From Chitinophaga pinensis (lineage in GTDB: Bacteria; Cyanobacteriota; Cyanobacteriia; PCC-6307; Cyanobiaceae): a DNA stretch of 40,000 bases. The notes beneath the pieces are model-generated. The model ran no database searches. It saw only the letters and a program-made list of their open reading frames with translations, and was not told the origin of the DNA. The translations under genes and the position numbers were made by a program. The DNA lies in NCBI GenBank assembly GCA_943371815.1, contig CALRWB020000003.1, positions 68,707 through 108,706 on the forward strand, written 5' to 3'. This document shows, piece after piece, positions 4,922 to 37,000 of this stretch (its first letter is position 1; every line of letters begins with the position of its first letter).

Positions 4922-6166
4922 TCAGGGCAGTACCTCGATGCGGCGGATTGCCCGCACCTGGGTGGCGGAGGCGATCGTCTTGCTCTCGGCAAACTGATCG
5001 CCCAGGTAGGTCATCCGCTGGTAGGCGGTGCCGCTGGCGACCTGGGTGGAGGTCCAGTGGAAGAAGGGATCGTCGCCGTAGTTCTCGTCGAAGTGCTTGA
5101 GCGTCTCCGCCCCACCAGCGCGGAAGGAGAGCACTGAGGTGAGGGCCGGATTGCTGTCGGTGTAGTTGCCGCCGGCCGGCACCGCATAGGGGTTGGCGCC
5201 ATAACCAGCACCTGAATACGTGCCATTGGCTGTCGCCTCCGGCTTGAAGGACCGGTACAGCACATCCCACTCCTGGGTGGCGGGCAGGTACCAGTCGTCG
5301 TAGCCGCTGATGGAGAGGGTGCGGCAGAAGCGTGCAGCGGGGTGGCTGGTGTTGTTCATCGCTTCGCTGTTCGCCCATCCGTCGAACACGCTGGAGGTGC
5401 CGCTGGTGGCGGTATTGGCGCTCTTCCAGGCCAGGTTGAGCGCCGAGCCAAAGGTCTTGGGCGAAATGATCAGCGCGTGCGTAGCCACGCCATTGGCGGT
5501 GTGACTGATCAGCCCCGCGTAGTAGCCGCCCTGGAAGGAGCTGCCGATGGCGGGCAGATCGGCCACGCGGATGGGCCCGAGCTGAAAGACGGTGCCGGTG
5601 AGCAGATCGAGGTAGAGGTCGCCATCCACCGCACCAGGAATGGTCAGCGGCGGTGCACCACTGCCGGTGAACCAGCCTGTGCCGCGGGGGCCGATCAGAC
5701 CATCGGAGCCGGCCGGGCCTTGGATACCTTGCGGTCCCTGCGGGCCAGCCGGTCCTTGGGGACCAGCCCCGCCAGCGGGGCCGGCCGCACCTGCAGGTCC
5801 CTGGGGTCCCTGGATGGAGCCGCCATTCACCCAGCTGTTGCTGCCCGAATCCCAGATCCGCAGCGAGTCATCAGCCTGCACCAGGTAGGCATCGCCCTGG
5901 GCGGCATTGGCCGGCAGGTTGGCGATCGCCGCCACCTGACCCTTGAAGTTGATGCCGATGCCCGCCGGACCCTGGATGCCCTGGCTGCCAGCAGGACCAG
6001 CGGGGCCTGATGGGCCGGGGGGACCTTCTGGGCCTTGCAGGCCGGCAGGTCCCTGGGCGCCTTGAAGACCAGCAGGCCCTTGGCTGCCCTGAACGCCGGG
6101 ACCGCCCTGCGGGCCGGCAGGTCCCTCAGGACCGCGAATTGAACCGGTGGAACTCCAGGAACCCAT
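4922..6166 (-). CDS. Collagen-like tail fibre protein with DUF1566-like C-terminal domain
   Basis: Two Gly-X-Y blocks of about 20 and 15 triplets (GPEGPAGPQ..., [13 protein letters not shown]...). Fibre motifs GDAYLV and [16 protein letters not shown]-terminal [18 protein letters not shown] resembles DUF1566. ATG at 6166; the listed GTG at 6199 lies inside the upstream motif. Confidence 0.8.
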
Positions 6167-6193
6167 GGCAGCCAGTGGGCGGTGCGCCCGTCG

Positions 6194-6214
6194 CGTCACT
6201 GCCTATTGCCATGG
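6194..6214 (-). promoter_or_regulatory. Conserved intergenic motif, copy 1 (CCATGGCAATAGGCAGTGACG in gene orientation)
   Basis: Identical 21-mer to 9299-9319. Lies 27 nt upstream of the fibre gene ATG, in the gap after the 6256 stop. Confidence 0.5.
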
Positions 6215-8347: not shown

Positions 8348-9265
8348 TCAAGAGATCGGGGCGATGGAGTGGAGCCGGCCGGCAGCGCGCGGATGCATGA
8401 CGCCAAAGCCGACGTACCAGTCGATGCGTGTACGGAATACAGGTGCATCCGGCACCTCACCCAGGTCACGCACCGAGATGCCGTAGCGGCTCTGGAACGG
8501 GCCCTGCAGGCCGGTCACCGCCTGATCGCCAAAGGTGCAGCAATAGATCGAGCTGGTACCGCCGGCCTCGCCGTAACCCAGCACTTCCAGTCCCTGGGCG
8601 TCGCGATCGACCGTGAGGATCTGGCACTCCTGGTAGTGATGCACCATCACGCCCAGGTTGTTGGTGCTCACGTTGTAGATGCCCTGGCCAACCGTCTGGC
8701 GGGCGAGGGCATTGAGCTGGCGGCGCATCGCCTTGCTCATCACCAAATACTTCTTGCCGCCGTAGGAGTTGACCGAGTCGATCAGCTCATCGAGCTTGTC
8801 GAAATCGAGTGCTCCGCCACCGTTGTTGAGGGCCATCTCAGCTCCAGGGGAGAGGCGCCGGGCCAAGCCGTCAAAGCCCCGGCCCTGGCTGGCGGTGGCA
8901 TCACCGTTGATCAGGGCCGCCTCCAGCGTTAACCGCATCGAGCGCACCTTCATCTCGGTCTGTGCAGCCCGGGCTTCTGGGCCCTGCAGGTCCACGATCG
9001 AACGGTCCACATCGACGTCGCCGCCAAAGAGGTGCACGGCTTCTGACTGGGGGTCAACGACGCCGTAGCTCTGCTTGTAGCCCTCGTTCACGGCCCGGAA
9101 GCCCACCGAGGGGAGTTCCTTCTCGACGGAATAGAAGAGACCGCCGCCAGCGATGTTCATGAACGGCAGCCAGCTGAGCAGTTCGCCCTCAGCGAAGGTC
9201 TTGATCACCGCCAGGTGCTCTAGGCGGGTCTCGTACTTGGCTGCCTCGATCAGGGTGAGGCCCAT
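8348..9265 (-). CDS. Major capsid protein (probably HK97-fold)
   Basis: 305 aa from ATG 9265, with AGGAG 11 nt upstream. Positioned after the scaffold-like gene. Sequence is typical of phage major capsid proteins (...DFDKLDELIDSVNSYGGKKYLVMSKAMRRQLNAL...). Confidence 0.7.
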   Translation of the reverse strand: MGLTLIEAAKYETRLEHLAVIKTFAEGELLSWLPFMNIAGGGLFYSVEKELPSVGFRAVNEGYKQSYGVVDPQSEAVHLFGGDVDVDRSIVDLQGPEARAAQTEMKVRSMRLTLEAALINGDATASQGRGFDGLARRLSPGAEMALNNGGGALDFDKLDELIDSVNSYGGKKYLVMSKAMRRQLNALARQTVGQGIYNVSTNNLGVMVHHYQECQILTVDRDAQGLEVLGYGEAGGTSSIYCCTFGDQAVTGLQGPFQSRYGISVRDLGEVPDAPVFRTRIDWYVGFGVMHPRAAGRLHSIAPIS

Positions 9266-9298
9266 TGGTGCTGCACTCCTGGGGCCTGGCCCCTGTGA

Positions 9299-9319
9299 CG
9301 TCACTGCCTATTGCCATGG
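9299..9319 (-). promoter_or_regulatory. Conserved intergenic motif, copy 2
   Basis: Identical 21-mer to copy 1, 33 nt upstream of the capsid ATG. Here it continues into the palindrome GTGACGTCAC. Confidence 0.5.
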
Positions 9320-9523
9320 TCAGAACGTGGCTCCACAGCAGCGCATCCAAACGGGGAATCTGCAGGGCGTCGGTCGCCATCCCAGTCGGCGAGGGGAAGA
9401 AGGGATGCACCGCTGCCCCAGCCGTCTCGCCCTTGCAAGGATCAGGCCGGGCGCCTCTGCGAGACGTCCTTGCCAGGTCGCTACAGCCGGGGCCTGACGC
9501 GGGTGTCCCTCGCCTTCCTTGAG

Positions 9524-9748
9524 ATGGCTTCCTCGTTCCTTTGCTCTCCAGCCGCCGTCGAGATCCGCCAGCTGGTGGTTCACTCCTATCCCGATGGCAT
9601 CAAGGCCGCCGGTGCCGAGCGCGTCACGGTCTTTTATGGCCGCCAGGGCAAGCCGGTGAAAAAGCCCCGCTTCCTGCCGGCTGAGCTGGCCCACCAGCTG
9701 GCCCGCAAGCTGCAGGCCAAGCGCCTCGGCACCGTCTCAGTGCTCTGA
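9524..9748 (+). CDS. Small hypothetical protein (74 aa), plus-strand moron
   Basis: ATG at 9524. About 85% G/C at third codon positions by my count. Sits upstream of DoxX on the same strand. Confidence 0.45.
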   Translation: MASSFLCSPAAVEIRQLVVHSYPDGIKAAGAERVTVFYGRQGKPVKKPRFLPAELAHQLARKLQAKRLGTVSVL

Positions 9749-9901: not shown

Positions 9902-10276
9902 ATGACCACTCTGAGCAGCCGCCCCTCATTGCTGAACCGCATCGCTCGGGTGCTGCTCTGCCTGGTGTTCATCCATGCGGTGATCGGCAAGCTGACGAGC
10001 TTTGCCGGTCCGGCTGCCGCCATTGCGGCCAAGGGTCTGCCGTTGGCACCGGTACTGCTGGTGGCGGCCATGGCCTTGATGGCGGTGGGTTCGGCCCTGG
10101 TGATCAGCGGCTGGAGGGCCCGCCTGGGGGCGGTGCTGCTGTTGGTGTTCCTAGTGCCCACCACCCTGCTGTTTCATGGCGATGTGAGTGATCCCGGCGA
10201 GCGGATCCAGCTGCTCAAGAACCTGGCGATCGTGGGCGGCCTGCTGCTGGTGGCCGATCAGAACAGCAAGGCCTGA
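9902..10276 (+). CDS. DoxX-family membrane protein
   Basis: 124 aa from ATG 9902. Hydrophobic DoxX-like sequence: LLNRIARVLLCLVFIHAVIGKL...LVFLVPTTLLFHG...NLAIVGGLLLVA. Confidence 0.8.
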   Translation: MTTLSSRPSLLNRIARVLLCLVFIHAVIGKLTSFAGPAAAIAAKGLPLAPVLLVAAMALMAVGSALVISGWRARLGAVLLLVFLVPTTLLFHGDVSDPGERIQLLKNLAIVGGLLLVADQNSKA

Positions 10277-10942: not shown

Positions 10943-11800
10943 TCAACGACGAGCACCGCGGCCGTTCACCGCGAAGGACGCCCGGTAGAGCTCCGAGGCC
11001 GACATCGCCTGGGGGTTGATCGGCTCGCCGTTGCTGCCGATGCCCGATGCCGTAAGCGCACCAGCGGCCTGCATACCAGCCGGGCCCCGCTGCTGGAACA
11101 GGAAGCCGTAAACGGGATGCACGCGCATCTGATCGAGGAACTCGGTCGTGGTCATCGGCCTGCCGTCATCACCGAGCAGGGGCTTGCCCTGGGAGTCGAG
11201 GGGTTCGAGCACGTCCTTGCCGTCGTTGCCGTTGCTCAGCCGGAAGCAGGTGCCCAGCTGCCCTTTGAAGATGTCGAAAAAGGTGCCACGGCCATCGCCA
11301 CCGGTGCGGCCCTCGGCCTCTGAGAAGGCACGCTCAAGTAGACGCTCCTTACGCAGCTGCAGGATCTGCTGCTTGGCGTCATCGCGCTCAGCAGCAACGG
11401 CGGCCACCTTCTGGGCGGATGCTTCCTCCATCTGGCGCTCGCGCAGTTCCACCTGCTGCTCAAGGATCTGCTTCTGGCGTTCAGCGTCCTGCAGGCGGGA
11501 GTATTCCTCAGGGTTGATCTCGGAGAAGCGGTTCAGCTGCTGCTTGAGCGTGCGGATCTCTTTCTCTAGCTGGTTGGTCTTGCGCCGCTCCGCCCGTAGG
11601 GGGTCGGAGGAACGACTGTCGTCTGCGGCGCTAAAAGCCGCCTCAGATTGGGAAGACGTTTGACTGTCGGCGGCATCGCCTGAGACCTGGGCATCGCCAG
11701 TCCCGGGTTCGCTTGCCAGACCGGTGGCGGAGTAATTGTCATCAGCCCCTTGGCCGGCGGCGGCGGTAGGAGCAGTGTTGGAAGTGGTGGCAGTGGCCAT
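10943..11800 (-). CDS. Scaffolding-like protein
   Basis: Start MATATTSNT at 11800. Low-complexity N-terminus, then a long charged coiled coil (EKEIRTLKQQLNRF...QKQILEQQVELRERQMEE...). Lies between the portal block and the capsid. Confidence 0.6.
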   Translation of the reverse strand: MATATTSNTAPTAAAGQGADDNYSATGLASEPGTGDAQVSGDAADSQTSSQSEAAFSAADDSRSSDPLRAERRKTNQLEKEIRTLKQQLNRFSEINPEEYSRLQDAERQKQILEQQVELRERQMEEASAQKVAAVAAERDDAKQQILQLRKERLLERAFSEAEGRTGGDGRGTFFDIFKGQLGTCFRLSNGNDGKDVLEPLDSQGKPLLGDDGRPMTTTEFLDQMRVHPVYGFLFQQRGPAGMQAAGALTASGIGSNGEPINPQAMSASELYRASFAVNGRGARR

Positions 11801-11843
11801 GACCCATCGCGGCTGTCGTGGATGAGCACCCCATCCGGGCTGT

Positions 11844-11864
11844 GCTCTCCACCTATTGCCATGG
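11844..11864 (-). promoter_or_regulatory. Conserved intergenic motif, copy 3 (CCATGGCAATAGGTGGAGAGC)
   Basis: First 13 nt identical to copies 1 and 2; 16/21 overall. Lies 43 nt upstream of the scaffold ATG. Confidence 0.4.
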
Positions 11865-12118
11865 CGCTGAGCACTGACGCCAGAGTGGAGCTGATGCAAA
11901 CACCGCTCCGCCCCACCCCCCGCGAGACCACTGAGGCGATGGTGCGCAACATCGGCCGGGAGCTAGCCGAGATCGAGCAGAAGATGGCTCGCTGCCGTGG
12001 TGATGCGGTGGCGGAGCCCCGGTTAACGGGCACCTGGATGGCTCACCTGCTGATCAGCAGCAACGAGCTCATGCACAACCTTCTGATCGACACGGCCAAG
12101 CGGCCGCCGCGGCTTTAG
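11861..12118 (+). CDS. Small hypothetical protein (85 aa) on the plus strand inside the head operon
   Basis: ATG is the CCATGG core of motif copy 3. About 85% G/C at third positions by my count. Fills the 320-nt gap between minus-strand genes. Confidence 0.4.
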   Translation: MALSTDARVELMQTPLRPTPRETTEAMVRNIGRELAEIEQKMARCRGDAVAEPRLTGTWMAHLLISSNELMHNLLIDTAKRPPRL

Positions 12119-12121
12119 GTC

Positions 12122-13021
12122 TCAGCCCCGCGATAGCTCCAGCTGCCGCGCCAGCCACAGCTCCACTTCCTCGTAGGTGTAGCGAACGAGGTTGCCCAGC
12201 TTCACGAAGGGAGGGCCGTAGCCGCTGGAGTTCCAGCTGTAGATGGTGGAAAGGGAAACGCCTAGGTAGGTCGCCAGGGTTTCGGGCGTGTAGAAGCCGG
12301 CTGGCAGGGCGGTGGTGCTGGTGTCGGCGTTGGCTGCAGCGCGGCGCTTGGGCAGGAACAGCCAGCTCCCCAGCGGCAGTTGATCCGACGGGCGGGCGGT
12401 GATGGTGGGGTTGAGGCTGCGCAGGGTGGTCACGGTGGTGCCGTGGCGTTCGGCCAGCACGTTGAGGCTGTCGCCGGAGCCCACCACCGCCACTCGGTTG
12501 GGCTTGAGCGCCGCCTGGACCCGTTCGCCCAGTAGCGGCTGGGTCAAGGAGCCAATGCCACCAGCGCCGTAGAGCCCACCAAACTCGGTCACGGAAAAGG
12601 CCCCCAGCTGGCCTCGGGTCGGGGAGGGAAGCAGGCCTGGCGTGCGCAGCTCCGACAGCGGCCCCAACCAGACGGCCCCAAAGCAGGGGGTGAGCAGCGC
12701 CGGGGTGGTGGCAGACACCGGCCGGATGCCGCTGGTGCTCCAGCTGATGTCGGCTGCCAGCCAGTCCCAGGGTTGGGACGGTGTCAGTGGCAGCACTGCC
12801 CCGCGAGTCAGGTAGCCCTCGTAGGTGAAGTCCCCCGTGTCGAGTCCGGGGGCGTTCTCCTTGCTGGAGATGCCACGCAGGCGCTTGAGGAACCCCTCAA
12901 AGACGAACCGTCCGGTGCGCTCCGAATCGAGCACGCCGGGGATGGCATTGGAGAACAGCAGGATGCGGGCATTGGCGTAGGGCTGCAGCGCCGAGGGGGG
13001 CAAGGTTGGGGTGCTGGTCAC
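12122..13021 (-). CDS. Protein with LysM domain and C-terminal excisionase/AlpA-type HTH
   Basis: GTG start. LysM-like VVGSGDSLNVLAERHGTTVTTLRSLNP...LPLGSWLFLP. C-terminal YTPETLATYLGVSLSTIYSWNSSGYGPPFVKLGNLVRYTYEEVELWLA resembles excisionase-family HTH. Confidence 0.7.
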   Translation of the reverse strand: MTSTPTLPPSALQPYANARILLFSNAIPGVLDSERTGRFVFEGFLKRLRGISSKENAPGLDTGDFTYEGYLTRGAVLPLTPSQPWDWLAADISWSTSGIRPVSATTPALLTPCFGAVWLGPLSELRTPGLLPSPTRGQLGAFSVTEFGGLYGAGGIGSLTQPLLGERVQAALKPNRVAVVGSGDSLNVLAERHGTTVTTLRSLNPTITARPSDQLPLGSWLFLPKRRAAANADTSTTALPAGFYTPETLATYLGVSLSTIYSWNSSGYGPPFVKLGNLVRYTYEEVELWLARQLELSRG

Positions 13022-13024
13022 GGA

Positions 13025-13543
13025 TCAACCCCGCTCCAGCGCTGCGGTGAAGCTCCCGCCACCGCTGCTCAGCTGGGAGTCGCGGCTCCAGTTCGCCAGG
13101 GTCGGCAGCATCAGCACCAGGGCCTGAGCATGGCTACCCCGCTGCCGCCGCAGGGCCTGTTCGATCGAGAGGCCCACACCAAAACGAGTGATGGTCTCCT
13201 CGCGCAGCAACTCGGTGTCGAACTCGATCACGTCGGCCTTCTTGACCGGCAGCGTCCCGTCCTCCGGCAGTGCATCAGCAATGGCTGCCTTGCGGCGGGT
13301 TTCGATCGGCGCCATCAGCTGCTCCGGGTTCAGCCCTGCCAGTTCAGTGTCGATAGCAGCGATGGCATCCAGTTCCCGCCTGGCGGTGGGGATGGCGTCG
13401 GGGTAGAGCTGCTCCAGATCTGCCATCGCGTCGTTGATGGCGCGGATCCCCGCCATCCGAGCCGGGATCGAGAGGGCGATGCGGATCCCCTCCAGGTCAG
13501 CAGCACGCCAGCGGTAGGGCGGGTCGACGGGGGTCTGGCTCAT
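13025..13543 (-). CDS. Hypothetical head-module protein
   Basis: 172-aa ORF. ATGA overlap with the portal stop. Confidence 0.55.
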   Translation of the reverse strand: MSQTPVDPPYRWRAADLEGIRIALSIPARMAGIRAINDAMADLEQLYPDAIPTARRELDAIAAIDTELAGLNPEQLMAPIETRRKAAIADALPEDGTLPVKKADVIEFDTELLREETITRFGVGLSIEQALRRQRGSHAQALVLMLPTLANWSRDSQLSSGGGSFTAALERG

Positions 13544-15099
13544 GAGGCTGCAGGCGCGGCTGTCTCCTCTTGCCTCAGAGGCACAGGAGCCGTGGGCGCC
13601 GGAGCAAGGCCTACCTCGCCGGCCCGGGTCGCTGGGCTGTCATCCAGCGTTGGACTGCTGATCGCGTTGGCCGTCGCCAGAGCCAGTTGGTGCCGCAGTT
13701 CCTCCCGGCTGATCACGCCCTTATCGAAGAGCTCGATCCATTCCTTCACCTGGGGCTGCGGCTGGATCGGTGGGGTGAGCGGGCTCACCGTCACCTGCAG
13801 ACCGGCACCTGGATCGAGGAGTTCACCGCTTAAGGAACACCAGTGCTGCAGGAGGGTGGAGAACAGCGAGGCTTTCTGGATCGCCATTGCCTGCAGCAGC
13901 GCATAGCTCTGGGAGGCGGTGAGGCTGATCTCCATCTCAGTGCGGGCAGCACCACGGTTCTGGGATGGGATCAGCGCGTCGCGGCGCATGGTGTCATCGA
14001 GGATCTGCAGCCAGGCACGGTGCTCGGCCAGGGACCGGGCGCGGATCTCTACGAACTCGAAGGAGGCATCAGCCGGCAGGTCCATGCAGGTGTTGGGACC
14101 CAGCACGACCGGTCCGGCCTGGCTGTTGCCCATGGCGTCGACCATCCCCTTGCGGACGCCAACGGGAAGAGCAGTCCTGGAGAGGAGCTCCTCGTATTCG
14201 CTCTTACAGCGGAAGTGGTTGAGGTACTGGTGCGCCAGGCCCAGGTGCGGCAGGTCCCCCTCCCCGAAGGCCGAGCCATCGGAGGTGTACCAGCAGGCCG
14301 GCAGCCGGCTGATGCCCTCGTACGTCGTGACCAACGGCTCGTCGCAGCGCCAGCCCGTCGTGGCCTGCGGGTCAGCGCAGACAGGGTGGTGGGCCAGCTG
14401 CAGGCCCGTGACGGCATCACCAGCGGTGAGCAGCTGCAGGCTGCGGTAGTGCCAGCGGTCGGGGGCGTCGGCATCGCCCAGCAGAGCGTTGATCTGCTCG
14501 CTGACAGCCCCTTCAGGGCCGGGAGCCTCGGTGCTGATGGGGAGGCTCACTGGCTCTCGCCAGACGATCTGGCTCGGCAGTCCGTTGGACTCGGGCAGCT
14601 CCCAGTTCAGGCAGTTGGATCGGGGTACCAGCTGGAGGCGGGGGAGAGACAGGCGATCGCCGCGGCGGAGGGCCTCCTGCCGGTCGCCCTCGCTGGGCCA
14701 GCTGTGCTCGGGAGGGAGCACCAGAACCAGGGCGGCGCCATCGCGCAGCACCAGCAGGTCGGCAGCGGACAAGAACACACCCAGGTCCGTGCCCCTCCCA
14801 TCCACATCGGTGAGCACTGAGGTCAGGCTGGCAGGGAGGCTGATCCAACTGCCTCGGCTGAGCATGCCGGCGTAGGTGCGCAGGGCGTCACGGAAGAAGC
14901 CCGAAGGGCGGGCGGCGTCGAGGCGTTTGCGGTAGGCGGTGTCGGGTTCCCGCTCGCCCTTGGGGAGGTAATGCTCCTTGCGATTGCTGCCGTCGGGGGC
15001 GGCGAGAAGGGCCCAGCAGTCGGCGGTGATCTGGAGATCGGGGCATTGCCCCACAAGCACTGAATGGCGCCGCCAAGGAGCATGGTTTAGCAGAGGCAT
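13540..15099 (-). CDS. Portal protein (DUF4055-like N-terminal motif)
   Basis: 519 aa, the first large gene of the head block after the terminase. HYLPKGEREPDTAYRKRLDAARPSGFFRDALRTYAGML matches my recollection of a portal-associated motif. Confidence 0.7.
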   Translation of the reverse strand: MPLLNHAPWRRHSVLVGQCPDLQITADCWALLAAPDGSNRKEHYLPKGEREPDTAYRKRLDAARPSGFFRDALRTYAGMLSRGSWISLPASLTSVLTDVDGRGTDLGVFLSAADLLVLRDGAALVLVLPPEHSWPSEGDRQEALRRGDRLSLPRLQLVPRSNCLNWELPESNGLPSQIVWREPVSLPISTEAPGPEGAVSEQINALLGDADAPDRWHYRSLQLLTAGDAVTGLQLAHHPVCADPQATTGWRCDEPLVTTYEGISRLPACWYTSDGSAFGEGDLPHLGLAHQYLNHFRCKSEYEELLSRTALPVGVRKGMVDAMGNSQAGPVVLGPNTCMDLPADASFEFVEIRARSLAEHRAWLQILDDTMRRDALIPSQNRGAARTEMEISLTASQSYALLQAMAIQKASLFSTLLQHWCSLSGELLDPGAGLQVTVSPLTPPIQPQPQVKEWIELFDKGVISREELRHQLALATANAISSPTLDDSPATRAGEVGLAPAPTAPVPLRQEETAAPAAS

Positions 15100-15110
15100 A
15101 AGGCAGGGGA

Positions 15111-15131
15111 GTCACACTGACTCTTGCCAGG
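15111..15131 (-). promoter_or_regulatory. Conserved intergenic motif, copy 4 (CCTGGCAAGAGTCAGTGTGAC, degenerate)
   Basis: Aligns to the consensus with one 1-nt deletion and one 2-nt insertion. Lies 11 nt upstream of the portal ATG, at the left junction of the low-GC block. Confidence 0.4.
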
Positions 15132-15162
15132 CTTCCCGACACATGAGCATTCAGACCAATAA

Positions 15163-15669
15163 TTAAAGGGCTGACGAGCTGGTCTGCTTGCGACTAATCT
15201 CATTAAAATATTTATGCAGCTGAGAAACTATGATCCAGGTAACGACTACAACCTGAACGAAGCTGCTCGTAGCAAGCATGATCATCCATGGGAACAAGAG
15301 CCTTCCGTGGGGCCTCGAAAACACACCAAGAGACACTGCGGCCGTAGATCCAAGACACAGAAGGGAAAGATAGTAAAGCGAGAAGAAGACCTGGTGATAG
15401 CGATAGCCCCTATACCTGGCAAATGCCCGACCCGAAGAAAGGCCAAATAGTATGGTAATAATTGTCGCAAGAAATCCCATAAAAGTTATTGATGCTGTAA
15501 TGAGTATTTCTGCTATGGGTTCTGATTTCCCATAAAGGGCAAAAGCTAGATCGGGCCATTTCCAAACAGCAAGCTTATAAAGTCCGTATGCGACTGGTCC
15601 ACTCAGCAAGGTCGCCGAGCAGAGCAAGATCGTCAAGATTATCAGTTGTGAATGCGTCGGCTTGCTCAT
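15163..15669 (-). CDS. RexB-like four-TM membrane protein
   Basis: 168 aa with four hydrophobic helices (about residues 8-30, 52-77, 92-116, 123-150). ITILFGLSSGRAFARYRGYRYHQVFFSLYYLSL resembles recalled lambda RexB LTFLIGSRTRRLAKIREYGYMTSVVIVYALSF. Confidence 0.6.
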   Translation of the reverse strand: MSKPTHSQLIILTILLCSATLLSGPVAYGLYKLAVWKWPDLAFALYGKSEPIAEILITASITFMGFLATIITILFGLSSGRAFARYRGYRYHQVFFSLYYLSLLCLGSTAAVSLGVFSRPHGRLLFPWMIMLATSSFVQVVVVTWIIVSQLHKYFNEISRKQTSSSAL

Positions 15670-16507
15670 GATGATTCACCTTTTGAGGAAGAACGTGATT
15701 GCGCTGGATTGCTGTTCTGATTTGTCTAAGTATATCTTGATCCGATCCATTATCAAGTTCATCGCTGACATGGCCACGGCCCGCAAGGTGCAACTCAATC
15801 AACGTGTCATCCAGACTTTCCAGCCTCCCTCGGCAAACAATCTTTTCCGAGGTCTCTATCCCTGGCAGCCGAAGAACCTTAGACATAGCGCGCTGGATGT
15901 TCGACCTCGGGCGAGGCCTAATGATTACCTCGATGCTATCAACATCAGTAAAGTCTTGAATGTCAGCTCCCAAAACATTGACAAAGTGGCCAAATAGAGA
16001 ATGATTGTTTTGGACCTTAATCTCAGAACGCCCGAGAAAAGGGGCGGAAAGAGCTGTTTCGATGCTGGTGCACTCTAGAAATGGATAAAGAATAAATCGG
16101 TACTTATCCAGTCTAATTTCCTTGAGCAGGTCATTTATAAAGCGCGCAAACGAAGGAGCCCTAGGGGCCATCATTGTTGATGTAAATGCCAAATAGCTCT
16201 TTTCGAACAAAACGTATGAGGCACACCCAAGTCGCTCGTTAGCACTTAACAGAGTGTTGATCTCGACGACATCGAGATTGGTGCTATTTATGCGCTTTAT
16301 GACCTCATTCTGCCTTGTTGCCAGGTATAGATAGAAATTTTGGTCAATGCCGAGAAGAAAGTAATTCTCTCCTTCGCGAATAAATTTATTCTTGAATGAA
16401 ATATCATTGAGCGCAGAAAAGCAGGCAAGAAGGGGGCGCACATCAAAAAGGTGATACCTATCTTCCTGTATGTCATGAATGGCGTATCCATAATAGGAAA
16501 GCTTCAT
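15575..16507 (-). CDS. RexA-like soluble protein
   Basis: 310 aa. Several blocks resemble recalled lambda RexA: MKLSYYGY vs MKNGFYATY; KRINSTNLDVVEINTLLSANERLGCASYVLFEKSYLAFTSTMMAP vs KINRSKASVEDIKNSLADDESLGFPSFLFVEGDTIGFARTVFGP; VNVLGADIQDFTDVDSIEVIIRPRPRSNIQR vs LKVLGATDIEGELFDSLDIVIKPKFKRDIKK. Confidence 0.6.
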   Translation of the reverse strand: MKLSYYGYAIHDIQEDRYHLFDVRPLLACFSALNDISFKNKFIREGENYFLLGIDQNFYLYLATRQNEVIKRINSTNLDVVEINTLLSANERLGCASYVLFEKSYLAFTSTMMAPRAPSFARFINDLLKEIRLDKYRFILYPFLECTSIETALSAPFLGRSEIKVQNNHSLFGHFVNVLGADIQDFTDVDSIEVIIRPRPRSNIQRAMSKVLRLPGIETSEKIVCRGRLESLDDTLIELHLAGRGHVSDELDNGSDQDILRQIRTAIQRNHVLPQKVNHHEQADAFTTDNLDDLALLGDLAEWTSRIRTL

Positions 16508-16537
16508 TGGCTCATCGCGCCCTCGGTTAAATATATT

Positions 16538-16565
16538 ATCTTACTATCGCCGTCTCCCTGAGCAA
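16538..16565 (-). promoter_or_regulatory. Candidate sigma-70-type promoter for the Rex-like pair (TTGCTC, 16-nt spacer, TAAGAT)
   Basis: Found in the 120-nt AT-rich spacer upstream of the ATG at 16507. GAGGG lies 12 nt before the ATG. Pattern match only. Confidence 0.3.
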
Positions 16566-16627
16566 GCGATTGAAATACATATCAATGCAGTCGCTATCTT
16601 GCCGTGAAATGATTCTCGTGTCGCCCG

Positions 16628-17134
16628 TCAAGCAACCTCGCTCTTGTCGCACAATGTGCATACCCTAAGGGAGCAAGCAAAGGCAATTTCATGCCATCTT
16701 TCGGGTTTAATACCTAATCTTGTAGGCACTTCAGAGGGCAACAAGCCACGCCTCAGAAGCTTCTGTCCTCGAGCGTGCAATTCCCTCCAACTTGCAGGCA
16801 CTTTGATCAGGAACCCCTTATCACGGAGGTAGTGATACACCTCCCCATTGGCATAGGTGCGGGCATAGGGCCGAAATGATCCCCGCTCCGGGGAGTAGCG
16901 GCGGGCAGCATGGATGATGCCGAGCATGGCGATCTGCTCCAGGTCCTCCTTTGGATGACCAGTCCGGCGGGAGATGTTGCCAGCGACGGTGGCGGCGATG
17001 TCGCCGTGCTGCAGTGCCAACGCATTGGCCGCGGCATGGGGGTTCACTGGCCGATGCCGTCGTGGTTTGGGTGGATAAGCCACCACCCTGGGGCAGGGCC
17101 GATGGGGATGGGACGGATCGAGTGATTGGCTCAT
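16628..17134 (-). CDS. Sigma-70-family (SigF-like) protein lacking region 4; possibly truncated or chimeric
   Basis: Start MSQSLD at 17134, 4 nt after the terminase stop. Region 2: EDLEQIAMLGIIHAARRYSPERGSFRPYARTYANGEVYHYLRDKGFLIKVPASW. Region-3-like: LLPSEVPTRLGIKPERWHEI. Ends 13 residues later with no region-4 HTH. The GC drop begins inside the 3' part. Confidence 0.65.
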   Translation of the reverse strand: MSQSLDPSHPHRPCPRVVAYPPKPRRHRPVNPHAAANALALQHGDIAATVAGNISRRTGHPKEDLEQIAMLGIIHAARRYSPERGSFRPYARTYANGEVYHYLRDKGFLIKVPASWRELHARGQKLLRRGLLPSEVPTRLGIKPERWHEIAFACSLRVCTLCDKSEVA

Positions 17135-17138
17135 TGGC

Positions 17139-18830
17139 TTACCTGGAGAACACCATCGGCACAGGCGAGGTGCCGTAGCCCCGGCCCCGCCAGAACTGCG
17201 CCTCGATCCAGAGGACCCCCTGGCAGAAGGCATCCACCTGGTCGTCCACACCACCTCTGGGCGAGAAGGCCAGAAGTTCCTCGATCAGCGAGTTGGCCTT
17301 GCGGGCAAAGCGCACTTGACCCGCCTCCACCAAGGGCGCAACCGCATGGGCCCTGGATGCCTTGCTGCCCTTGGGAGGAATGGCGATCAGGCCGGGAAGC
17401 TGGCGCTTGAGCAGCTGGCAGACGGCCGGGCCGTTGGCGGCGTCTTCTAGGAGGACGGCATTGGGGCGCAGGCCCTGGCGCTCCAGCGAGGCCAGGGAGG
17501 CCAGCAGGAACTTGATCACCCCCGGCAGGTCCAGCTGCTGCCGGTGGCTCCAGAGCGCCTCGATCTGCAGTTCGGCCCAGGGGTCGGGGGCATGTGCCCC
17601 CACTGCGGAGAGAGATCCACTACCCCTTGCAGCTCCTGCATTGGCGGCCAGCGCCAGGCCCTGCCGGCGAGCATCGGCAGCAGGGTGGCGCTGCGGCTCC
17701 AGCAGACCGAGCAGGGCAAAACCGCATGCGTCGTTGTCTTTTCCGTCCTTGAAGCTCAGATCGCAGCTCAGCACCAAAGGCGCATAGCGGCGTGGCTGGC
17801 CCGGGGCGATCGGCAAAGGAGGCTGGATCCACTGCTTCCGGAACAGCAGGCCTTCAGCGGGGCTGGGGCGCTGCTGGTAGAGGGCGTTCCACCAGTAAGA
17901 GCCCAGGCGGGTGCGGATGCGCTGCAGCACCTCCAGCGGCACCCGCTCGGGGCAGAGCGGCTCGCCGGGCTGGCGCCAGTCGATGACCTTGGTGCATGTA
18001 TGCGGAATCTGCATCGCAATGGATTCCGGTTCGGCGATAGCCGGCAGGTTGAGCACGGTCCAGTGCTCCGGGTTCTCCTCCGCTTCTTGCTCGAGCAACC
18101 AGGCAGTCATGTCGTGGTGGTCCCAGCGGGTCTGCACCACCACCTGGGCCGCCGGCAGCAACCCACCTGTTGCCGTCAGGCCAGGCTCGGCCCGGGTGAA
18201 CCAGACGCTCTTGAGCCAGTCGATCAGCCGCTCCCGTTGCAGCGCCGACTTGGCGTCCTCCGGGCCTTTGTAGGGGTCGTCGATGATCCCAAGGTTGTAG
18301 CCCTTGCCCGTGAACGGGCCCCGCACGCCGGCGGCGATGCAGCCACCCCGCTGGGGCGTCAGCCAGTTGCCCACCGCCGCCGAATCCTTGGAGAGGGCAT
18401 GGCCGGTGCTCCGGTAGTAGTGCCGCGCTTCTCTCGAGTGGGCATAGGCCAGCTCACCGGAGTAGCTGGCAATGGCGCAGAACTGCTGCGGGTGCCGGCT
18501 CACCCAGTAAGCAGGGAACAGGCGCGAAACCAGCTGGGATTTGCCGTGCCGCGGCGGACAGCAGACGATCAGGCGCGTCAGCTGGCCATCGGCCACCTGC
18601 TGGAGCAAGTCGATCAGCAGTTCAGAGAGCTGGTGGAACTGAAAGGTGGGGAAGGCCGAGCGAATGAAGTCGCGAAATAGCAGGCCTTGTCCGGTCGTTG
18701 TCGCCCGGTCAGGGTCGGGAACACCCAGCAGGCCCCAGTCGGCCCAAAGGTCGGTGGCGGGGTCCAGCAGCAGCCCGCCATCGCCAGTGATGGCGTTCGT
18801 CGGTCTGGTTGTCGCGGCGATGCGGCCCAT
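17139..18830 (-). CDS. terL: Terminase large subunit
   Basis: 563 aa. Walker A CCPPRHGKSQ, Walker B-like LGIIDDPYKG, C-terminal nuclease-type region. TGATG overlap with the upstream gene. Confidence 0.9.
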   Translation of the reverse strand: MGRIAATTRPTNAITGDGGLLLDPATDLWADWGLLGVPDPDRATTTGQGLLFRDFIRSAFPTFQFHQLSELLIDLLQQVADGQLTRLIVCCPPRHGKSQLVSRLFPAYWVSRHPQQFCAIASYSGELAYAHSREARHYYRSTGHALSKDSAAVGNWLTPQRGGCIAAGVRGPFTGKGYNLGIIDDPYKGPEDAKSALQRERLIDWLKSVWFTRAEPGLTATGGLLPAAQVVVQTRWDHHDMTAWLLEQEAEENPEHWTVLNLPAIAEPESIAMQIPHTCTKVIDWRQPGEPLCPERVPLEVLQRIRTRLGSYWWNALYQQRPSPAEGLLFRKQWIQPPLPIAPGQPRRYAPLVLSCDLSFKDGKDNDACGFALLGLLEPQRHPAADARRQGLALAANAGAARGSGSLSAVGAHAPDPWAELQIEALWSHRQQLDLPGVIKFLLASLASLERQGLRPNAVLLEDAANGPAVCQLLKRQLPGLIAIPPKGSKASRAHAVAPLVEAGQVRFARKANSLIEELLAFSPRGGVDDQVDAFCQGVLWIEAQFWRGRGYGTSPVPMVFSR

Positions 18831-21351: not shown

Positions 21352-22524
21352 TCAGAGCGGCTCAGCGCCTTCGCTGAGAATCGCCAGATAGGCGTCGTAG
21401 GCAAAGAGCCGGTTGCGTTGCCCGCCGGTGATCTCCCGTGCAATGCCCAGGTCCACCAGGGTCTCCAGGGCTTTGGCTGTGGTGCTGAAGCTCAGGCTGC
21501 AGACGCTGCTCAGCTGTTTGATGCTGTTGAGTGGGCGCCGGCACAGGGCCGCAAACACCTGGCGAACGCTGGGGCCTGAACGTCCCAGGCCGCTAAGGCG
21601 GGCCTCATCTGTGCGGAACAACGCCAGCAGGCGATGTGCGGTGGTGACGGCGGCAGTTGCGGTGCTCTCGACGCCTTCTAGGAAGAAATCGATCCAGGCT
21701 TCCCAGTCGCCGTCCTCGCGGATGCCACTTAGCAGTTCGTAGTAGCGGCTGCGGTGCTGCTTGAAGAAAAGGCTCAGGTAGAGCAGCGGCTGCTGAAGCA
21801 CCCCGGCATCGATCAGCATCAGCACGATCAGCAGCCGGCCCAGGCGCCCGTTGCCGTCCAGAAATGGGTGGATGGTCTCGAACTGCACGTGGGCCAAGGC
21901 GGCCCGCACCAGCACCGGCAGGGAGTGAGCCCCATCCGGAGTGCCGTGGATGAAGTGCTCCAGCTGGCCCATGCACGTGTCCACCAGCTCGGGGGGCGGT
22001 GGCACAAAGCTGGCGTTACCGGGCCGGGTGCCGCCGATCCAGTTCTGGCTCCGGCGGAACTCCCCAGGCAGCCGATCGGCTCCGCGGCCCCTGGCAAGCA
22101 AGCGGGAGTGGATCTCCCGCAGAAGCCGCGAGGAGAGGGGGAAGTCCTCCCGCAGCCGCGCCAGGCCGTGCTCCAGTCCTGCCACATAACTGGATACCTC
22201 GACCACGTCATCGAAGGGGACGCCGGGGGCCTCTTCCAGCTCGAACAGCAGCAGGTCTGCGAGCGACGACTGGGTGCCCTCGATCTGGGAGGACAGCAGA
22301 GCTTCCCGCCTCACGTAGGCGTAAAGGAACAGCTCCCGATCCGGCAGCAGGGCTGACACCCCATCCAGACGGCCGCAGGCCAGCAGTGCCCGATCGTGCA
22401 GGGCCTGGAGGGCGCCCTCGATCAGCAAGGGCGGCTCTGGCGGCAACGGCGCTGGCACGAAGGCGCGCACCTCCTCGCCAGCAGTGCTGGTGAGCTCATA
22501 ACGGCCGGCGCTGTCGCGCTTCAT
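21352..22524 (-). CDS. Fic-family protein (class II, N-terminal autoinhibitory helix, C-terminal wHTH)
   Basis: Fic motif HPFLDGNGRLGR. Inhibitory [ST]xxxE[GN] motif SSQIEG in the N-terminal domain. 390 aa. Confidence 0.9.
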   Translation of the reverse strand: MKRDSAGRYELTSTAGEEVRAFVPAPLPPEPPLLIEGALQALHDRALLACGRLDGVSALLPDRELFLYAYVRREALLSSQIEGTQSSLADLLLFELEEAPGVPFDDVVEVSSYVAGLEHGLARLREDFPLSSRLLREIHSRLLARGRGADRLPGEFRRSQNWIGGTRPGNASFVPPPPELVDTCMGQLEHFIHGTPDGAHSLPVLVRAALAHVQFETIHPFLDGNGRLGRLLIVLMLIDAGVLQQPLLYLSLFFKQHRSRYYELLSGIREDGDWEAWIDFFLEGVESTATAAVTTAHRLLALFRTDEARLSGLGRSGPSVRQVFAALCRRPLNSIKQLSSVCSLSFSTTAKALETLVDLGIAREITGGQRNRLFAYDAYLAILSEGAEPL

Positions 22525-36968: not shown

Positions 36969-37000
36969 GGGGCCCAGTTTGGCGTCCCCTGGGCCTGGGC

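What the first reader, a model, noticed from the sequence alone, without database searches (positions are those of the whole stretch)
15140..16860. Low-GC Rex-like (RexA/RexB-type) two-gene exclusion cassette inserted between terminase and portal genes of a cyanobacterial prophage
A ~1.7 kb block is far lower in GC than its surroundings. My 60-nt counts give 23/60 at 15181-15240 and 26/60 at 16681-16740, against 40/60 at both 15001-15060 and 16861-16920. The block encodes a 310-aa soluble protein followed by a 168-aa protein with four hydrophobic helices. From memory of lambda RexA (279 aa) and RexB (144 aa, 4 TM), several blocks line up. For RexA: KINRSKASVEDIKNSLADDESLGFPSFLFVEGDTIGFARTVFGP vs KRINSTNLDVVEINTLLSANERLGCASYVLFEKSYLAFTSTMMAP; LKVLGATDIEGELFDSLDIVIKPKFKRDIKK vs VNVLGADIQDFTDVDSIEVIIRPRPRSNIQR; LTEHYLSEKGHLSAPLN vs LIELHLAGRGHVSDELD. 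For RexB: LTFLIGSRTRRLAKIREYGYMTSVVIVYALSF vs ITILFGLSSGRAFARYRGYRYHQVFFSLYYLSL. Gene order and sizes match the classic prophage sensor plus membrane-effector abortive-infection pair. I do not know of a Rex-type system described in cyanobacteria or cyanophages. The context also differs from lambda: here it is a moron inside the late/packaging region with its own AT-rich spacer and a sigma-70-like promoter, not co-transcribed with a cI repressor. Kiwa (KwaA TM protein plus KwaB DUF4868) is the main alternative assignment, though the gene order here is reversed relative to Kiwa.
Basis: partly seen in the sequence, partly recalled or inferred. Interest (0 to 1): 0.85.

Follow-up and report, generated by a model that had tools for sequence, protein, structure and literature searches.

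The report
RexAB exclusion genes in Cyanobium prophage
A prophage in a freshwater Cyanobium genome carries true homologues of phage lambda's RexA/RexB anti-phage pair, sitting as one of many swappable defence cargos in a fixed slot between a small sigma-like gene and the portal gene.

Summary
Window 15140-16860 has 46.0% GC against 65.7% elsewhere (z = -10). It holds two minus-strand genes.

- The 310-aa protein is a clear RexA: Pfam PF15969 E 3.6e-52; lambda RexA structure 8TWQ by sequence E 2.6e-20 and by fold E 6e-15. The lambda DNA-binding pair R219/K221 is conserved as R226/R228.
- The 168-aa protein is a diverged RexB: PADLOC E 5.7e-13; hhalign 91%; four hydrophobic segments in register with lambda RexB. 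It scores below Pfam's cut-off.
- Both genes are under strong purifying selection (dN/dS about 0.04-0.06).
- They overlap by 95 nt. This overlap is conserved across the clade but absent in lambda. Source gene callers skipped rexB or called it truncated.
- The host is a freshwater Cyanobium.

Related phages share the backbone TerL, a sigma-like gene lacking region 4, and portal. Between sigma and portal they carry Shedu, IetAS, bSEFIR/TIR, AriA-like, NsnA+HEPN and other cargos, including several with no family match. The cassette therefore sits in a defence hotspot, not next to an immunity repressor.

Anti-phage function is inferred from homology, not shown. I rate it a new member of a known kind, of moderate interest.

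The parts
15575..16507 (-). rexA homologue (310 aa), a soluble protein predicted to bind DNA and act as the sensor
   Evidence: Pfam RexA PF15969 E 3.6e-52, 177.7 bits against a cut-off of 25. PADLOC RexA E 1.2e-46. phmmer against PDB 8twq_A E 2.6e-20. BLASTP against lambda RexA 25% identity over 233 aa, E 5e-25. AF2 model pLDDT 89.8; Foldseek top hit 8twq_B E 6.1e-15. lambda R219/K221 align with R226/R228. dN/dS 0.04 against L003 and L007.
15163..15669 (-). rexB homologue (168 aa), a four-helix membrane protein and the predicted effector
   Evidence: PADLOC RexB E 5.7e-13. Pfam RexB E 0.013, 16.4 bits, below the cut-off of 27. hhalign of 23 clade members against 21 PF15968 proteins: probability 91.2%, E 9.7e-7, 126 columns. 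BLASTP against lambda RexB 29% over 96 aa, E 5e-5. Four hydrophobic segments at about 9-30, 52-80, 94-116 and 124-151. dN/dS 0.04-0.06. Not called by the source gene callers.
15575..15669 (-). 95-nt dual-coding overlap. It encodes the C-terminal tail of RexA (absent from lambda RexA) and, in another frame, the N-terminus and first transmembrane helix of RexB. The rexB Shine-Dalgarno AAAAGGTGAA lies just upstream at 15675-15684.
   Evidence: The overlap is 86-125 nt in all 13 clade loci, against a 15-nt gap in lambda. The start region AAAAGGTGAA-N5-ATGAGCAAGCC is conserved in six loci. dS falls to 0.2-0.38 here from 1.4-2.3 outside.
16508..16627 (-). 120-nt spacer upstream of rexA, a possible weak promoter of its own
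   Evidence: A block is shared with L003 and L007. The -10-like element is TAAGAT here and TATAAT in L007. The consensus scan reports no site in this spacer. Inferred only.
16628..17134 (-). sigma-like backbone gene (168 aa; regions 2-3, no region 4). Its variable, low-GC 3' end (about 16628-16830) is the left junction of the cargo.
   Evidence: Sigma70_r2 E 6.6e-12. SigF-type NCBIfam profile matched at positions 42-159 of 258. Aligns to residues 33-122 of 8x6g_H. Conserved in all TerL-related loci; the last ~45 aa are variable and GC drops there. GC3 is 0.70 in the 5' part and 0.52 in the 3' part.
15100..15162 (-). 63-nt spacer between the rexB stop and the portal start, the right junction of the cargo. 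No terminator was found.
   Evidence: GC rises from 0.47 to 0.6-0.7 across it. No terminator-like site in this spacer.
17139..18830 (-). large terminase, the upstream backbone anchor
   Evidence: PHROG 38 terminase large subunit E 2.1e-77. Clusters at >=90% identity with Cyanobium terminases.
13540..15099 (-). portal protein, the downstream backbone anchor
   Evidence: PHROG 145 portal E 1.4e-31 and DUF4055. 57-92% identical in the related loci.

Best explanation
The block is a two-gene RexAB-type phage-exclusion module, homologous to lambda rexA-rexB, carried by a prophage integrated in a freshwater Cyanobium chromosome.

By analogy with lambda and the P. putida RexABpp system, dimeric RexA binds DNA or a DNA-protein complex made by a superinfecting phage. 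It then activates the four-helix membrane protein RexB, which damages or depolarises the membrane and stalls the cell, so the invader cannot replicate.

The module is not an isolated insertion. It occupies a conserved variable slot between a small sigma-like gene and the portal gene. In sister phages that slot holds other defence systems, and cargo appears to be swapped by recombination anchored in the sigma gene and the portal region.

Shown here: homology of both proteins, the fold of RexA, conservation of the DNA-binding pair, RexB topology by hydropathy, obligatory pairing, purifying selection, the hotspot, and the host. Inferred: the trigger, channel activity, the abortive outcome, and expression during lysogeny.
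For: RexA identity:
- Pfam E 3.6e-52 and PADLOC E 1.2e-46.
- Match to 8TWQ by sequence, E 2.6e-20, and by fold, E 6e-15 with probability 1.0, followed by CENP-N as the RexA paper predicts (PMC11077077).
- R219/K221, whose alanine double mutant abolishes DNA binding in lambda RexA (PMC11077077), are R226/R228 here. These positions are basic in 51 and 57 of 57 family members.

RexB identity:
- PADLOC E 5.7e-13, hhalign 91.2%, BLASTP E 5e-5.
- Four hydrophobic segments in register with lambda RexB.

Pairing and function as genes:
- A rexB-like ORF follows and overlaps rexA in all 13 clade loci with downstream sequence, down to 28-34% RexA identity.
- dN/dS is 0.04-0.06 for both genes.

Defence context:
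- 22 IMG/VR contigs with TerL 60-91% identical keep a sigma-like gene after TerL, and the 20 that also reach the portal keep TerL-sigma-slot-portal. None has RexAB; the 19 slots examined (two of them identical in cargo) carry other cargo or are almost empty.
- Cargos: SduA E 2.4e-55; IetA/IetS E 2e-73 and 5e-58; bSEFIR E 4e-40; AriA-like E 5e-73; NsnA E 2e-58 with a HEPN protein; HNH, FRG and DEAD-helicase proteins; and ORFs with no match.

Host: Cyanobium.

Mechanism: taken from lambda and from RexABpp in P. putida (PMC12894663).
Against: - No phenotype, expression or interaction data exist for this pair.
- RexB scores below Pfam's gathering threshold (16.4 against 27 bits). Its topology rests on a hydropathy plot, not a dedicated predictor.
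- No convincing promoter or terminator delimits the cassette. It is co-oriented with the late packaging genes, so it may be transcribed with them rather than during lysogeny.
- The D215-R261 contact of lambda RexA is not conserved.
- The model superposes on 8TWQ with rmsd 17 A and TM 0.42-0.45, so the domain arrangement differs.
- One described Rex-like system, Butters gp30/31, works with reversed roles (PMC12894663), so homology does not fix the logic.
Confidence: 0.75

Rival explanations
1. The pair is expressed mainly with the late packaging operon. It would then serve the phage's own lytic cycle, for example excluding competitors during lytic growth or tuning membrane energetics and lysis timing, rather than protecting the lysogen.
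For: rexAB has the same orientation as TerL, sigma and portal, while most alternative cargos of the slot lie on the opposite strand. No terminator separates it from the flanking late genes, and no consensus promoter lies in the upstream spacer.
Against: The 120-nt AT-rich spacer carries a -10-like element that is TATAAT in L007. The described RexAB-type systems of lambda, CarolAnn, Sbash and P. putida act from the prophage (PMC12894663). Other occupants of the slot are classical defence systems.
Confidence: 0.1
2. Butters-type reversed logic: the RexA-like protein is the toxic effector, and the RexB-like membrane protein only sequesters it until infection.
For: This logic has been described for mycobacteriophage Butters gp30/gp31 (PMC12894663). 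The tight translational coupling through a conserved overlap would also suit an antidote-toxin stoichiometry.
Against: This RexA is detectably homologous to lambda RexA and this RexB to lambda RexB. In lambda, RexB is the effector.
Confidence: 0.07
3. The main role is regulatory rather than defensive. RexA would modulate the lysogeny-lysis switch through DNA binding, as shown for lambda RexA independently of RexB.
For: [quoted passage not shown] The DNA-binding residues are conserved.
Against: Here the genes are far from any repressor or operator region. They sit in a slot that otherwise holds defence systems. Strict co-occurrence with RexB argues for a two-component function.
Confidence: 0.05
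4. It is a decaying or neutral hitch-hiking remnant with no current function.
For: Two relatives are degraded: rexA is frameshifted in Methylovulum (L021), and truncated with no rexB in P. entomophila (L020).
Against: Both ORFs are intact in the window. dN/dS is 0.04-0.06 against relatives with dS above 1.3. The overlap and the rexB start site are conserved.
Confidence: 0.02
5. It is a Kiwa system (KwaA membrane protein plus KwaB DUF4868).
For: Only a superficial likeness: a soluble protein plus a multi-pass membrane protein.
Against: At E<=1 PADLOC returns only RexA and RexB for the two proteins, and Pfam returns no DUF4868.
Confidence: 0.01

Closest known systems
Bacteriophage lambda RexA/RexB exclusion system (Pfam PF15969/PF15968; RexA structure PDB 8TWQ)
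   Same: Both proteins are homologous. The gene order is rexA then rexB on one strand. RexA has the same fold and the conserved basic DNA-binding pair. RexB has four hydrophobic helices and a conserved basic loop between helices 2 and 3, S-x-R-x(4)-R-x-Y-x-Y. Both are carried by a prophage.
   Different: - Identity is only 25% for RexA and about 17-29% for RexB.
- RexA has a C-terminal tail of about 32 aa that lambda lacks.
- The genes overlap by 95 nt, where lambda has a 15-nt gap.
- The pair lies between a sigma-like gene and the portal in the packaging region, not downstream of cI in the immunity region.
- The host is a cyanobacterium.
- The D215-R261 contact is not conserved.
RexABpp of Pseudomonas putida prophage P1 (PP_5643/PP_5644; PMC12894663)
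   Same: A prophage-borne pair of a RexA-like DNA binder and a four-TM effector outside the enterobacteria. It is the nearest experimental precedent for the mechanism: RexA-triggered, RexB-dependent membrane damage and growth arrest.
   Different: RexApp is detectable only by HHpred and RexBpp not at all (PMC12894663). The Cyanobium proteins hit lambda directly. RexABpp lies near a cI-like repressor, and this pair does not.
Actinobacteriophage Rex-like pairs (Sbash gp30/31, CarolAnn gp44/43, Butters gp30/31)
   Same: Two-gene pairs of a cytosolic and a membrane protein that give prophage-mediated exclusion. The RexA homologues are dimeric, non-specific DNA binders (PMC11077077).
   Different: They are too diverged to be found by tblastn from this RexA. 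They are linked to the immunity region. Butters has reversed logic (PMC12894663).
Defence hotspots of temperate phages and satellites (for example the P2/P4 hotspots; from my own knowledge, not checked here)
   Same: A fixed position between conserved backbone genes holds alternative, compositionally foreign defence cargos across related elements.
   Different: The backbone is a Cyanobium phage lineage, and the anchors are a sigma-like gene and the portal. I found no description of this hotspot in the library searches I ran, though none of them targeted it specifically.

Membership tests
RexA (PF15969) | Sequence match to the family profile above the curated threshold | tested here: met
   177.7 bits against a cut-off of 25, E 3.6e-52, covering profile positions 1-231 of 235. 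PADLOC RexA E 1.2e-46.
RexA (PF15969) | Direct homology to lambda RexA | tested here: met
   phmmer against 8twq_A E 2.6e-20. BLASTP E 5e-25, 25% identity over 233 aa.
RexA (PF15969) | Two-domain RexA/RdgC-like fold (split globular domain plus dimerisation domain) | tested here: met
   AF2 model pLDDT 89.8. Foldseek top hits are 8twq_B and 8twq_A (E 6e-15 and 8e-13, probability 1.0), followed by CENP-N. Global TM is only 0.42-0.45 with rmsd 17 A, so the relative domain orientation differs. This fits the closed crystal form versus the open AlphaFold models described in PMC11077077.
RexA (PF15969) | Basic DNA-contacting pair (lambda R219/K221) | tested here: met
   They align with R226/R228. These positions are basic in 51/57 and 57/57 family members.
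RexA (PF15969) | Homodimer that binds dsDNA non-specifically | not testable with these tools
   Needs SEC-MALS and EMSA, or at least multimer modelling with DNA.
RexB (PF15968) | Sequence homology to lambda RexB | tested here: met
   PADLOC RexB E 5.7e-13. hhalign of clade against PF15968 alignments: 91.2%, E 9.7e-7, 126 columns. BLASTP E 5e-5. Caveat: the Pfam model itself gives 16.4 bits, below its cut-off of 27, so this is a diverged subfamily that Pfam does not capture.
RexB (PF15968) | Small inner-membrane protein with four transmembrane helices | tested here: met
   A Kyte-Doolittle 19-residue scan gives four segments above 1.6, in register with lambda RexB. This is a crude method and no dedicated topology predictor was available.
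RexB (PF15968) | Encoded immediately downstream of rexA on the same strand | tested here: met
   True in the window and in all 13 clade loci with downstream sequence.
RexB (PF15968) | Ion-channel or membrane-damaging activity triggered by RexA | not testable with these tools
   Needs membrane-potential and viability assays.
Rex exclusion system (operational definition) | Both genes are required and sufficient to exclude a superinfecting phage | not testable with these tools
   Needs phage challenge of strains that express the pair and each gene alone.
Lambda-type Rex locus organisation | Located in the immunity region and co-transcribed with a cI-like repressor | tested here: not met
   The flanks are TerL and a sigma-like gene on one side and the portal on the other. 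No repressor is adjacent. Distant relatives L020, L076 and L077 do appear to have cI-like HTH genes upstream, judged by eye only. This is a contextual feature, not a protein-family criterion.
Kiwa (KwaA/KwaB) | KwaB DUF4868 protein plus KwaA membrane protein | tested here: not met
   No Kiwa model hit at E<=1 in PADLOC and no DUF4868 in Pfam.
Phage defence hotspot | The same backbone position holds alternative known defence systems in related elements | tested here: met
   22 TerL-related IMG/VR contigs. 19 slots examined, 0.6-5.1 kb, GC 0.46-0.61. They hold SduA, IetAS, bSEFIR, AriA-like, NsnA+HEPN, HNH, FRG and DEAD-helicase proteins, an apparent HigBA-like pair (judged by eye), unmatched ORFs, or are nearly empty.

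The most novel reading that the evidence does not exclude
The slot between the sigma-like gene and the portal is a previously undescribed defence hotspot of a widespread lineage of freshwater picocyanobacterial temperate phages.
- RexAB is one of at least a dozen interchangeable cargos.
- Several cargo genes match no Pfam or PADLOC family and are candidate new defence systems: L024 430 aa, L025 627 aa, L027 200+297 aa, L030 478 aa, L031 260 aa, L033 341 aa.
- The overlapping-gene Rex clade may be undercounted, because callers skip or truncate rexB and two-gene detection rules would then fail.
Probability: 0.65. Interest if true: 0.6.

Novelty: new member of a known kind. Interest (0 to 1): 0.48.

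Why it matters
A 2026 paper counts only five RexAB-like systems as described, in enterobacteria, Pseudomonas and actinobacteria, and all are linked to the immunity region (PMC12894663).

- **Phylogenetic reach.** A clearly homologous pair in a Cyanobium prophage extends the oldest known abortive-infection system to cyanobacteria, which are ecologically dominant primary producers.
- **Portability.** It shows that the module also travels as hotspot cargo in a late-gene region.
- **Detection gap.** The conserved 86-125-nt rexA/rexB overlap is a practical warning. Source pipelines dropped or truncated rexB, so tools that need both genes are likely to miss this clade.
- **Discovery tool.** The hotspot gives a ready-made 'guilt by location' screen for new defence genes in freshwater picocyanobacteria.

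Tried and rejected
- **First AlphaFold run.** The 7-sequence alignment gave pLDDT 51.5 and was discarded. A 57-sequence alignment fixed this.
- **Genome scan with lambda in the alignment.** It had no conserved peptide to search with and was repeated without lambda.
- **Internal rexB promoter.** A site analogous to lambda P_LIT (TTGATA-16-TATACT, 15756-15729) was considered. Its -35 is not conserved in relatives, and the site count is not above shuffles, so I do not rely on it.
- **Sigma gene truncated by insertion.** Rejected. All relatives, including near-empty slots, have the same ~145-175-aa protein ending before region 4.
- **Kiwa.** Rejected.
- **tRNA att site.** None in the window. The left prophage end lies outside the window.
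- **Literature.** Searches for Rex in cyanobacteria or Cyanobium prophage defence found nothing relevant. This covers only the held library.
- **RexB against the PDB.** No solved relative.
Full report
**1. Observation**

The block 15140-16860 has 46.0% GC against 65.7% for the rest of the window. None of 697 other 1721-nt windows falls below 61.7%, so z = -10.3 (profiles). GC3 is 0.47 for rexA and 0.44 for rexB, against 0.81-0.82 for the flanking portal and terminase.

Two minus-strand ORFs fill the block: 310 aa at 15575-16507 and 168 aa at 15163-15669. The flanks are a large terminase (17139-18830; PHROG 38, E 2e-77) and a portal (13540-15099; PHROG 145, E 1e-31).

**2. Identity of the two proteins**

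The 310-aa protein is a RexA.
- Profile hits: Pfam PF15969 E 3.6e-52, 177.7 bits against a cut-off of 25, nearly full length. PADLOC RexA E 1.2e-46. PHROG 12654 'RexA-like exclusion protein' E 1e-24.
- Direct match to lambda: phmmer finds the solved lambda RexA (8TWQ) at E 2.6e-20. BLASTP against lambda RexA from J02459 gives 25% identity over 233 residues, E 5e-25.
- Structure: a first AlphaFold model from seven sequences was unusable, with pLDDT 51.5. A 57-sequence alignment gave pLDDT 89.8. Its best PDB matches by Foldseek are 8twq_B and 8twq_A (E 6e-15 and 8e-13, probability 1.0). Kinetochore CENP-N follows, only weakly (E > 0.03). The RexA structure paper reports this fold relationship for the yeast homologue CHL4 (PMC11077077).
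- Domain arrangement: the global TM-score is low (0.42-0.45) and the rmsd is 17 A. This fits a different domain orientation. The paper describes a closed crystal form and open AlphaFold models.
- DNA-binding residues: the lambda pair R219/K221, whose double alanine mutant abolishes DNA binding (PMC11077077), aligns with R226/R228. These positions are basic in 51/57 and 57/57 family members. The D215-R261 contact is not conserved.

The 168-aa protein is a diverged RexB.
- The Pfam RexB model scores below its threshold: 16.4 bits against 27, E 0.013.
- The PADLOC RexB model gives E 5.7e-13 over residues 14-149.
- Pairwise BLASTP against lambda RexB gives 29% identity over 96 residues, E 5e-5.
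- A profile-profile comparison set 23 clade members, with no lambda-type sequence, against 21 PF15968 proteins. It gave 91.2% probability, E 9.7e-7, over 126 columns.
- A hydropathy scan finds four hydrophobic segments (about 9-30, 52-80, 94-116, 124-151) in register with those of lambda RexB. It finds none in RexA.
- The best-conserved motif is the basic loop between helices 2 and 3: SSGRAFARYRGYRY here, SRTRRLAKIREYGY in lambda.
- The PDB holds no RexB relative.

No Kiwa model appears at E<=1 in PADLOC, and Pfam shows no DUF4868.

**3. Are they real, paired, functional genes?**

- The source gene callers did not call the 168-aa ORF in any Cyanobium-phage locus. They left a 430-740-nt gap between rexA and the portal, and the exact protein is absent from the 15-billion-protein collection.
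- The ORF is nevertheless present and about 85% identical in the close relatives.
- A rexB-like ORF follows and overlaps rexA in every clade locus with downstream sequence, down to 28-34% RexA identity. These include Methylococcaceae and Desulfobulbaceae MAGs and three IMG/VR contigs.
- The overlap is 95 nt in the window and 86-125 nt in all 13 loci. Lambda instead has a 15-nt gap.
- The rexB initiation region AAAAGGTGAA-N5-ATGAGCAAGCC is conserved across six loci whose flanks differ.
- Against L003 and L007, dN/dS is 0.04 for rexA and 0.04-0.06 for rexB outside the overlap.
- Inside the overlap, dS falls from 1.4-2.3 to 0.2-0.38, as expected for dual coding. The rexB frame is the more constrained of the two.
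- The overlapped DNA encodes a RexA C-terminal tail of about 32 residues that lambda RexA lacks.
- Truncated calls of rexB-like proteins (96-105 aa, 137-140 aa) exist in the databases. I attribute the missed calls to limits on same-strand overlap in gene finders. That is my inference.

**4. Host and element**

- The window is contig CALROW020000003.1 of MAG GCA_943369895.1.
- Host: the isocitrate dehydrogenase, phosphoketolase and glycogen phosphorylase encoded at 23.8-38.4 kb cluster at >=90% identity with proteins of Cyanobium usitatum and other Cyanobium. The terminase clusters with 'unclassified Cyanobium' terminases.
- Phage genes: the window carries a phage structural module. It comprises a tail fibre at 4922-6199, the major head protein at 8348-9304, a scaffold protein at 10943-11899, the portal and TerL.
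- Boundaries: host genes abut the module on the right. No tRNA is present, and the left end of the prophage lies beyond the window.

**5. Context: a defence hotspot, not a one-off insertion**

- A terminase-based scan of IMG/VR returned 22 contigs with TerL 60-91% identical. All keep a ~145-175-aa sigma-like gene after TerL, and the 20 that also reach the portal keep the order TerL, sigma-like gene, variable slot, portal.
- The TerL-portal gap varies from 1.1 to 5.7 kb. The 19 slots examined (two of them identical in cargo) are low in GC (0.46-0.61). None of these contigs carries RexAB.
- Known cargos:
  - Shedu SduA (E 2.4e-55)
  - IetA + IetS (E 2e-73 and 5e-58)
  - a bSEFIR/TIR protein (E 4e-40)
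  - an AriA-like AAA_15 ATPase (E 5e-73)
  - NsnA/GmrSD_N with a RiboL-PSP HEPN protein
  - HNH_5, FRG and pentapeptide-repeat proteins
  - a 1142-aa DEAD helicase
  - what looks by eye like a HigBA-like pair
- The remaining slots hold sizeable ORFs with no Pfam or PADLOC match. Three slots (L034, L035, L041) are nearly empty, at 580-650 nt.
- RexAB occupies the same slot in eight further contigs from seven other samples, besides a second assembly of the window's own locus (L002).
- One of these alleles is only 57% identical in RexA, although its portal is 91% identical and the TerL of a same-study contig carrying the same allele (L013) is 89% identical (L012). Rex alleles have therefore been exchanged or acquired more than once.
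- Closely related Rex pairs also occur in other contexts: next to what looks like an IS5-type transposase in L010 (by eye), and next to a T5orf172 gene in L015.
- In every locus the pair is AT-richer than its flanks.

The sigma-like gene belongs to the backbone.
- It matches Sigma70_r2 (E 6.6e-12) and SigF-type NCBIfam models at profile positions 42-159 of 258.
- It aligns to residues 33-122 of a 256-aa sigma factor (8x6g_H).
- It ends before region 4 in all 15 aligned relatives, including those with empty slots. RexAB did not truncate it.
- Its first two-thirds are nearly invariant. Its last ~45 codons are variable and take on the GC of the cargo: GC3 is 0.70 in the 5' part and 0.52 in the 3' part in the window.
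- The left junction of the low-GC block therefore lies inside this gene. This suggests cargo exchange by recombination between the conserved sigma 5' part and the portal region. That is my inference.

**6. Regulation**

- The consensus scan found no promoter in the 120-nt spacer upstream of rexA and no terminator after rexB. Four promoter-like sites in the region compare with 2.1 +/- 1.3 in shuffles.
- By eye the spacer has TTGCTC-16-TAAGAT. The homologous position in L007 reads TATAAT. This is weak support for a promoter of its own.
- A 10/12 promoter-like site inside rexA (15756-15729) recalls lambda's internal rexB promoter (my own knowledge). Its -35 is not conserved in relatives, so I do not rely on it.
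- RexAB is co-oriented with the late genes, whereas most other cargos lie on the opposite strand. Read-through from the packaging operon therefore cannot be excluded.

**7. Most likely mechanism**

The model comes from homology to lambda and to the experimentally characterised P. putida RexABpp (PMC12894663, PMC11077077). Dimeric RexA recognises phage DNA or a DNA-protein intermediate. It then activates RexB, which compromises the membrane and arrests the cell, aborting the infection.
- Shown here: homology, fold, conserved DNA-binding residues, hydropathy-based topology, obligatory pairing, purifying selection, and a defence-hotspot location.
- Inferred: the trigger, the RexA-RexB interaction, channel activity, the outcome for the cell, and expression in the lysogen.
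- Rivals: function within the late operon, Butters-type reversed roles, a regulatory role for RexA, and decay. They are listed with the tests that would separate them.

**8. Comparison with what is known, and novelty**

[quoted passage not shown] All are linked to the immunity region (PMC12894663, PMC11077077).
- Among 50,697 GenBank phage records, this RexA finds homologues in 19. All are enterobacterial lambdoids apart from one record labelled Campylobacter, and none is a cyanophage.
- In one genome per GTDB species, the clade appears in four genomes, none cyanobacterial.
- The whole family comprises 289 clusters at 50% identity among 1.84 billion representatives.
- Library searches found no report of a Rex system in cyanobacteria. 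That is absence within this library only.
- Existing Pfam and PADLOC models recognise the proteins, so this is a new member of a known kind.
- It has three notable variant features: the conserved gene overlap with a RexA tail, a hotspot location in the packaging region, and a cyanobacterial host.

**9. Verdict**

Interest is moderate, at 0.48. The assignment is solid but the system type is known, and function is untested. The added value lies in the hotspot, its unannotated cargos, and the annotation blind spot for rexB.

Noticed in passing
window 16628-17134 (-): A 168-aa sigma-like protein with sigma-70 region 2 and the start of region 3 but no region 4. It is conserved between TerL and portal in every related phage. 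How a sigma factor without the -35-reading domain would work is unclear, as is whether it drives late or cargo transcription.
   Followed up: partly
window 9902-10276 (+), with a 92-aa ORF at 9470-9748 (+): A DoxX-family membrane protein gene lies on the strand opposite to the structural genes, between the scaffold and major head genes. It is conserved in relatives L003, L004 and L007. This looks like a second moron slot.
   Followed up: no
window 21352-22524 (-): A Fic-family adenylyltransferase-like gene (Fic_N + Fic; NCBIfam SoFic-like, E 5e-42) lies between the phage packaging genes and the host glycogen phosphorylase. It could be prophage cargo or a toxin.
   Followed up: no
window 12122-13021 (-): A 299-aa protein inside the structural module combines a faint LysM match with an HTH_17/excisionase-like C-terminus. 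This is an unusual fusion.
   Followed up: no
L024 8805-10097; L025 8295-10178; L027 8539-9141 and 9138-10031; L030 4724-6160; L031 3249-4031; L033 8486-9511; L043 9336-10232: Low-GC genes in the same sigma-portal slot with no Pfam match at E<=1e-3. L030 and L043 were also scanned in PADLOC and had no match at E<=1e-5. They are candidate unknown defence genes by location.
   Followed up: partly
L036 8227-8769, L038 8202-8651, L042 5009-5545 (all -): A conserved ~150-180-aa ORF of unknown function lies directly after the sigma-like gene in the clade with TerL about 60% identical. The L036 copy had no Pfam match.
   Followed up: no
L021 6001-6773; L020 6001-6669: Decayed Rex loci. rexA is split by a frameshift in Methylovulum psychrotolerans. 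In Pseudomonas entomophila rexA is cut at residue 222 and no rexB follows.
   Followed up: partly
GenBank MW057783.1 (hit H8): The record named 'Campylobacter phage CJLB-4' (48,361 bp) matches with the same scores as lambda at nearly the same coordinates (36252-36956 against 36332-37036). It looks like a lambda genome under another name.
   Followed up: no
L076 3349-4089; L077 2023-3256; L020 5088-5975: Distant RexAB relatives appear to have cI/Cro-like HTH genes a short distance upstream, and L077 has a serine recombinase downstream. That resembles the lambda-type immunity context, unlike the Cyanobium locus. This was judged by eye from the translations, not profile-tested.
   Followed up: no
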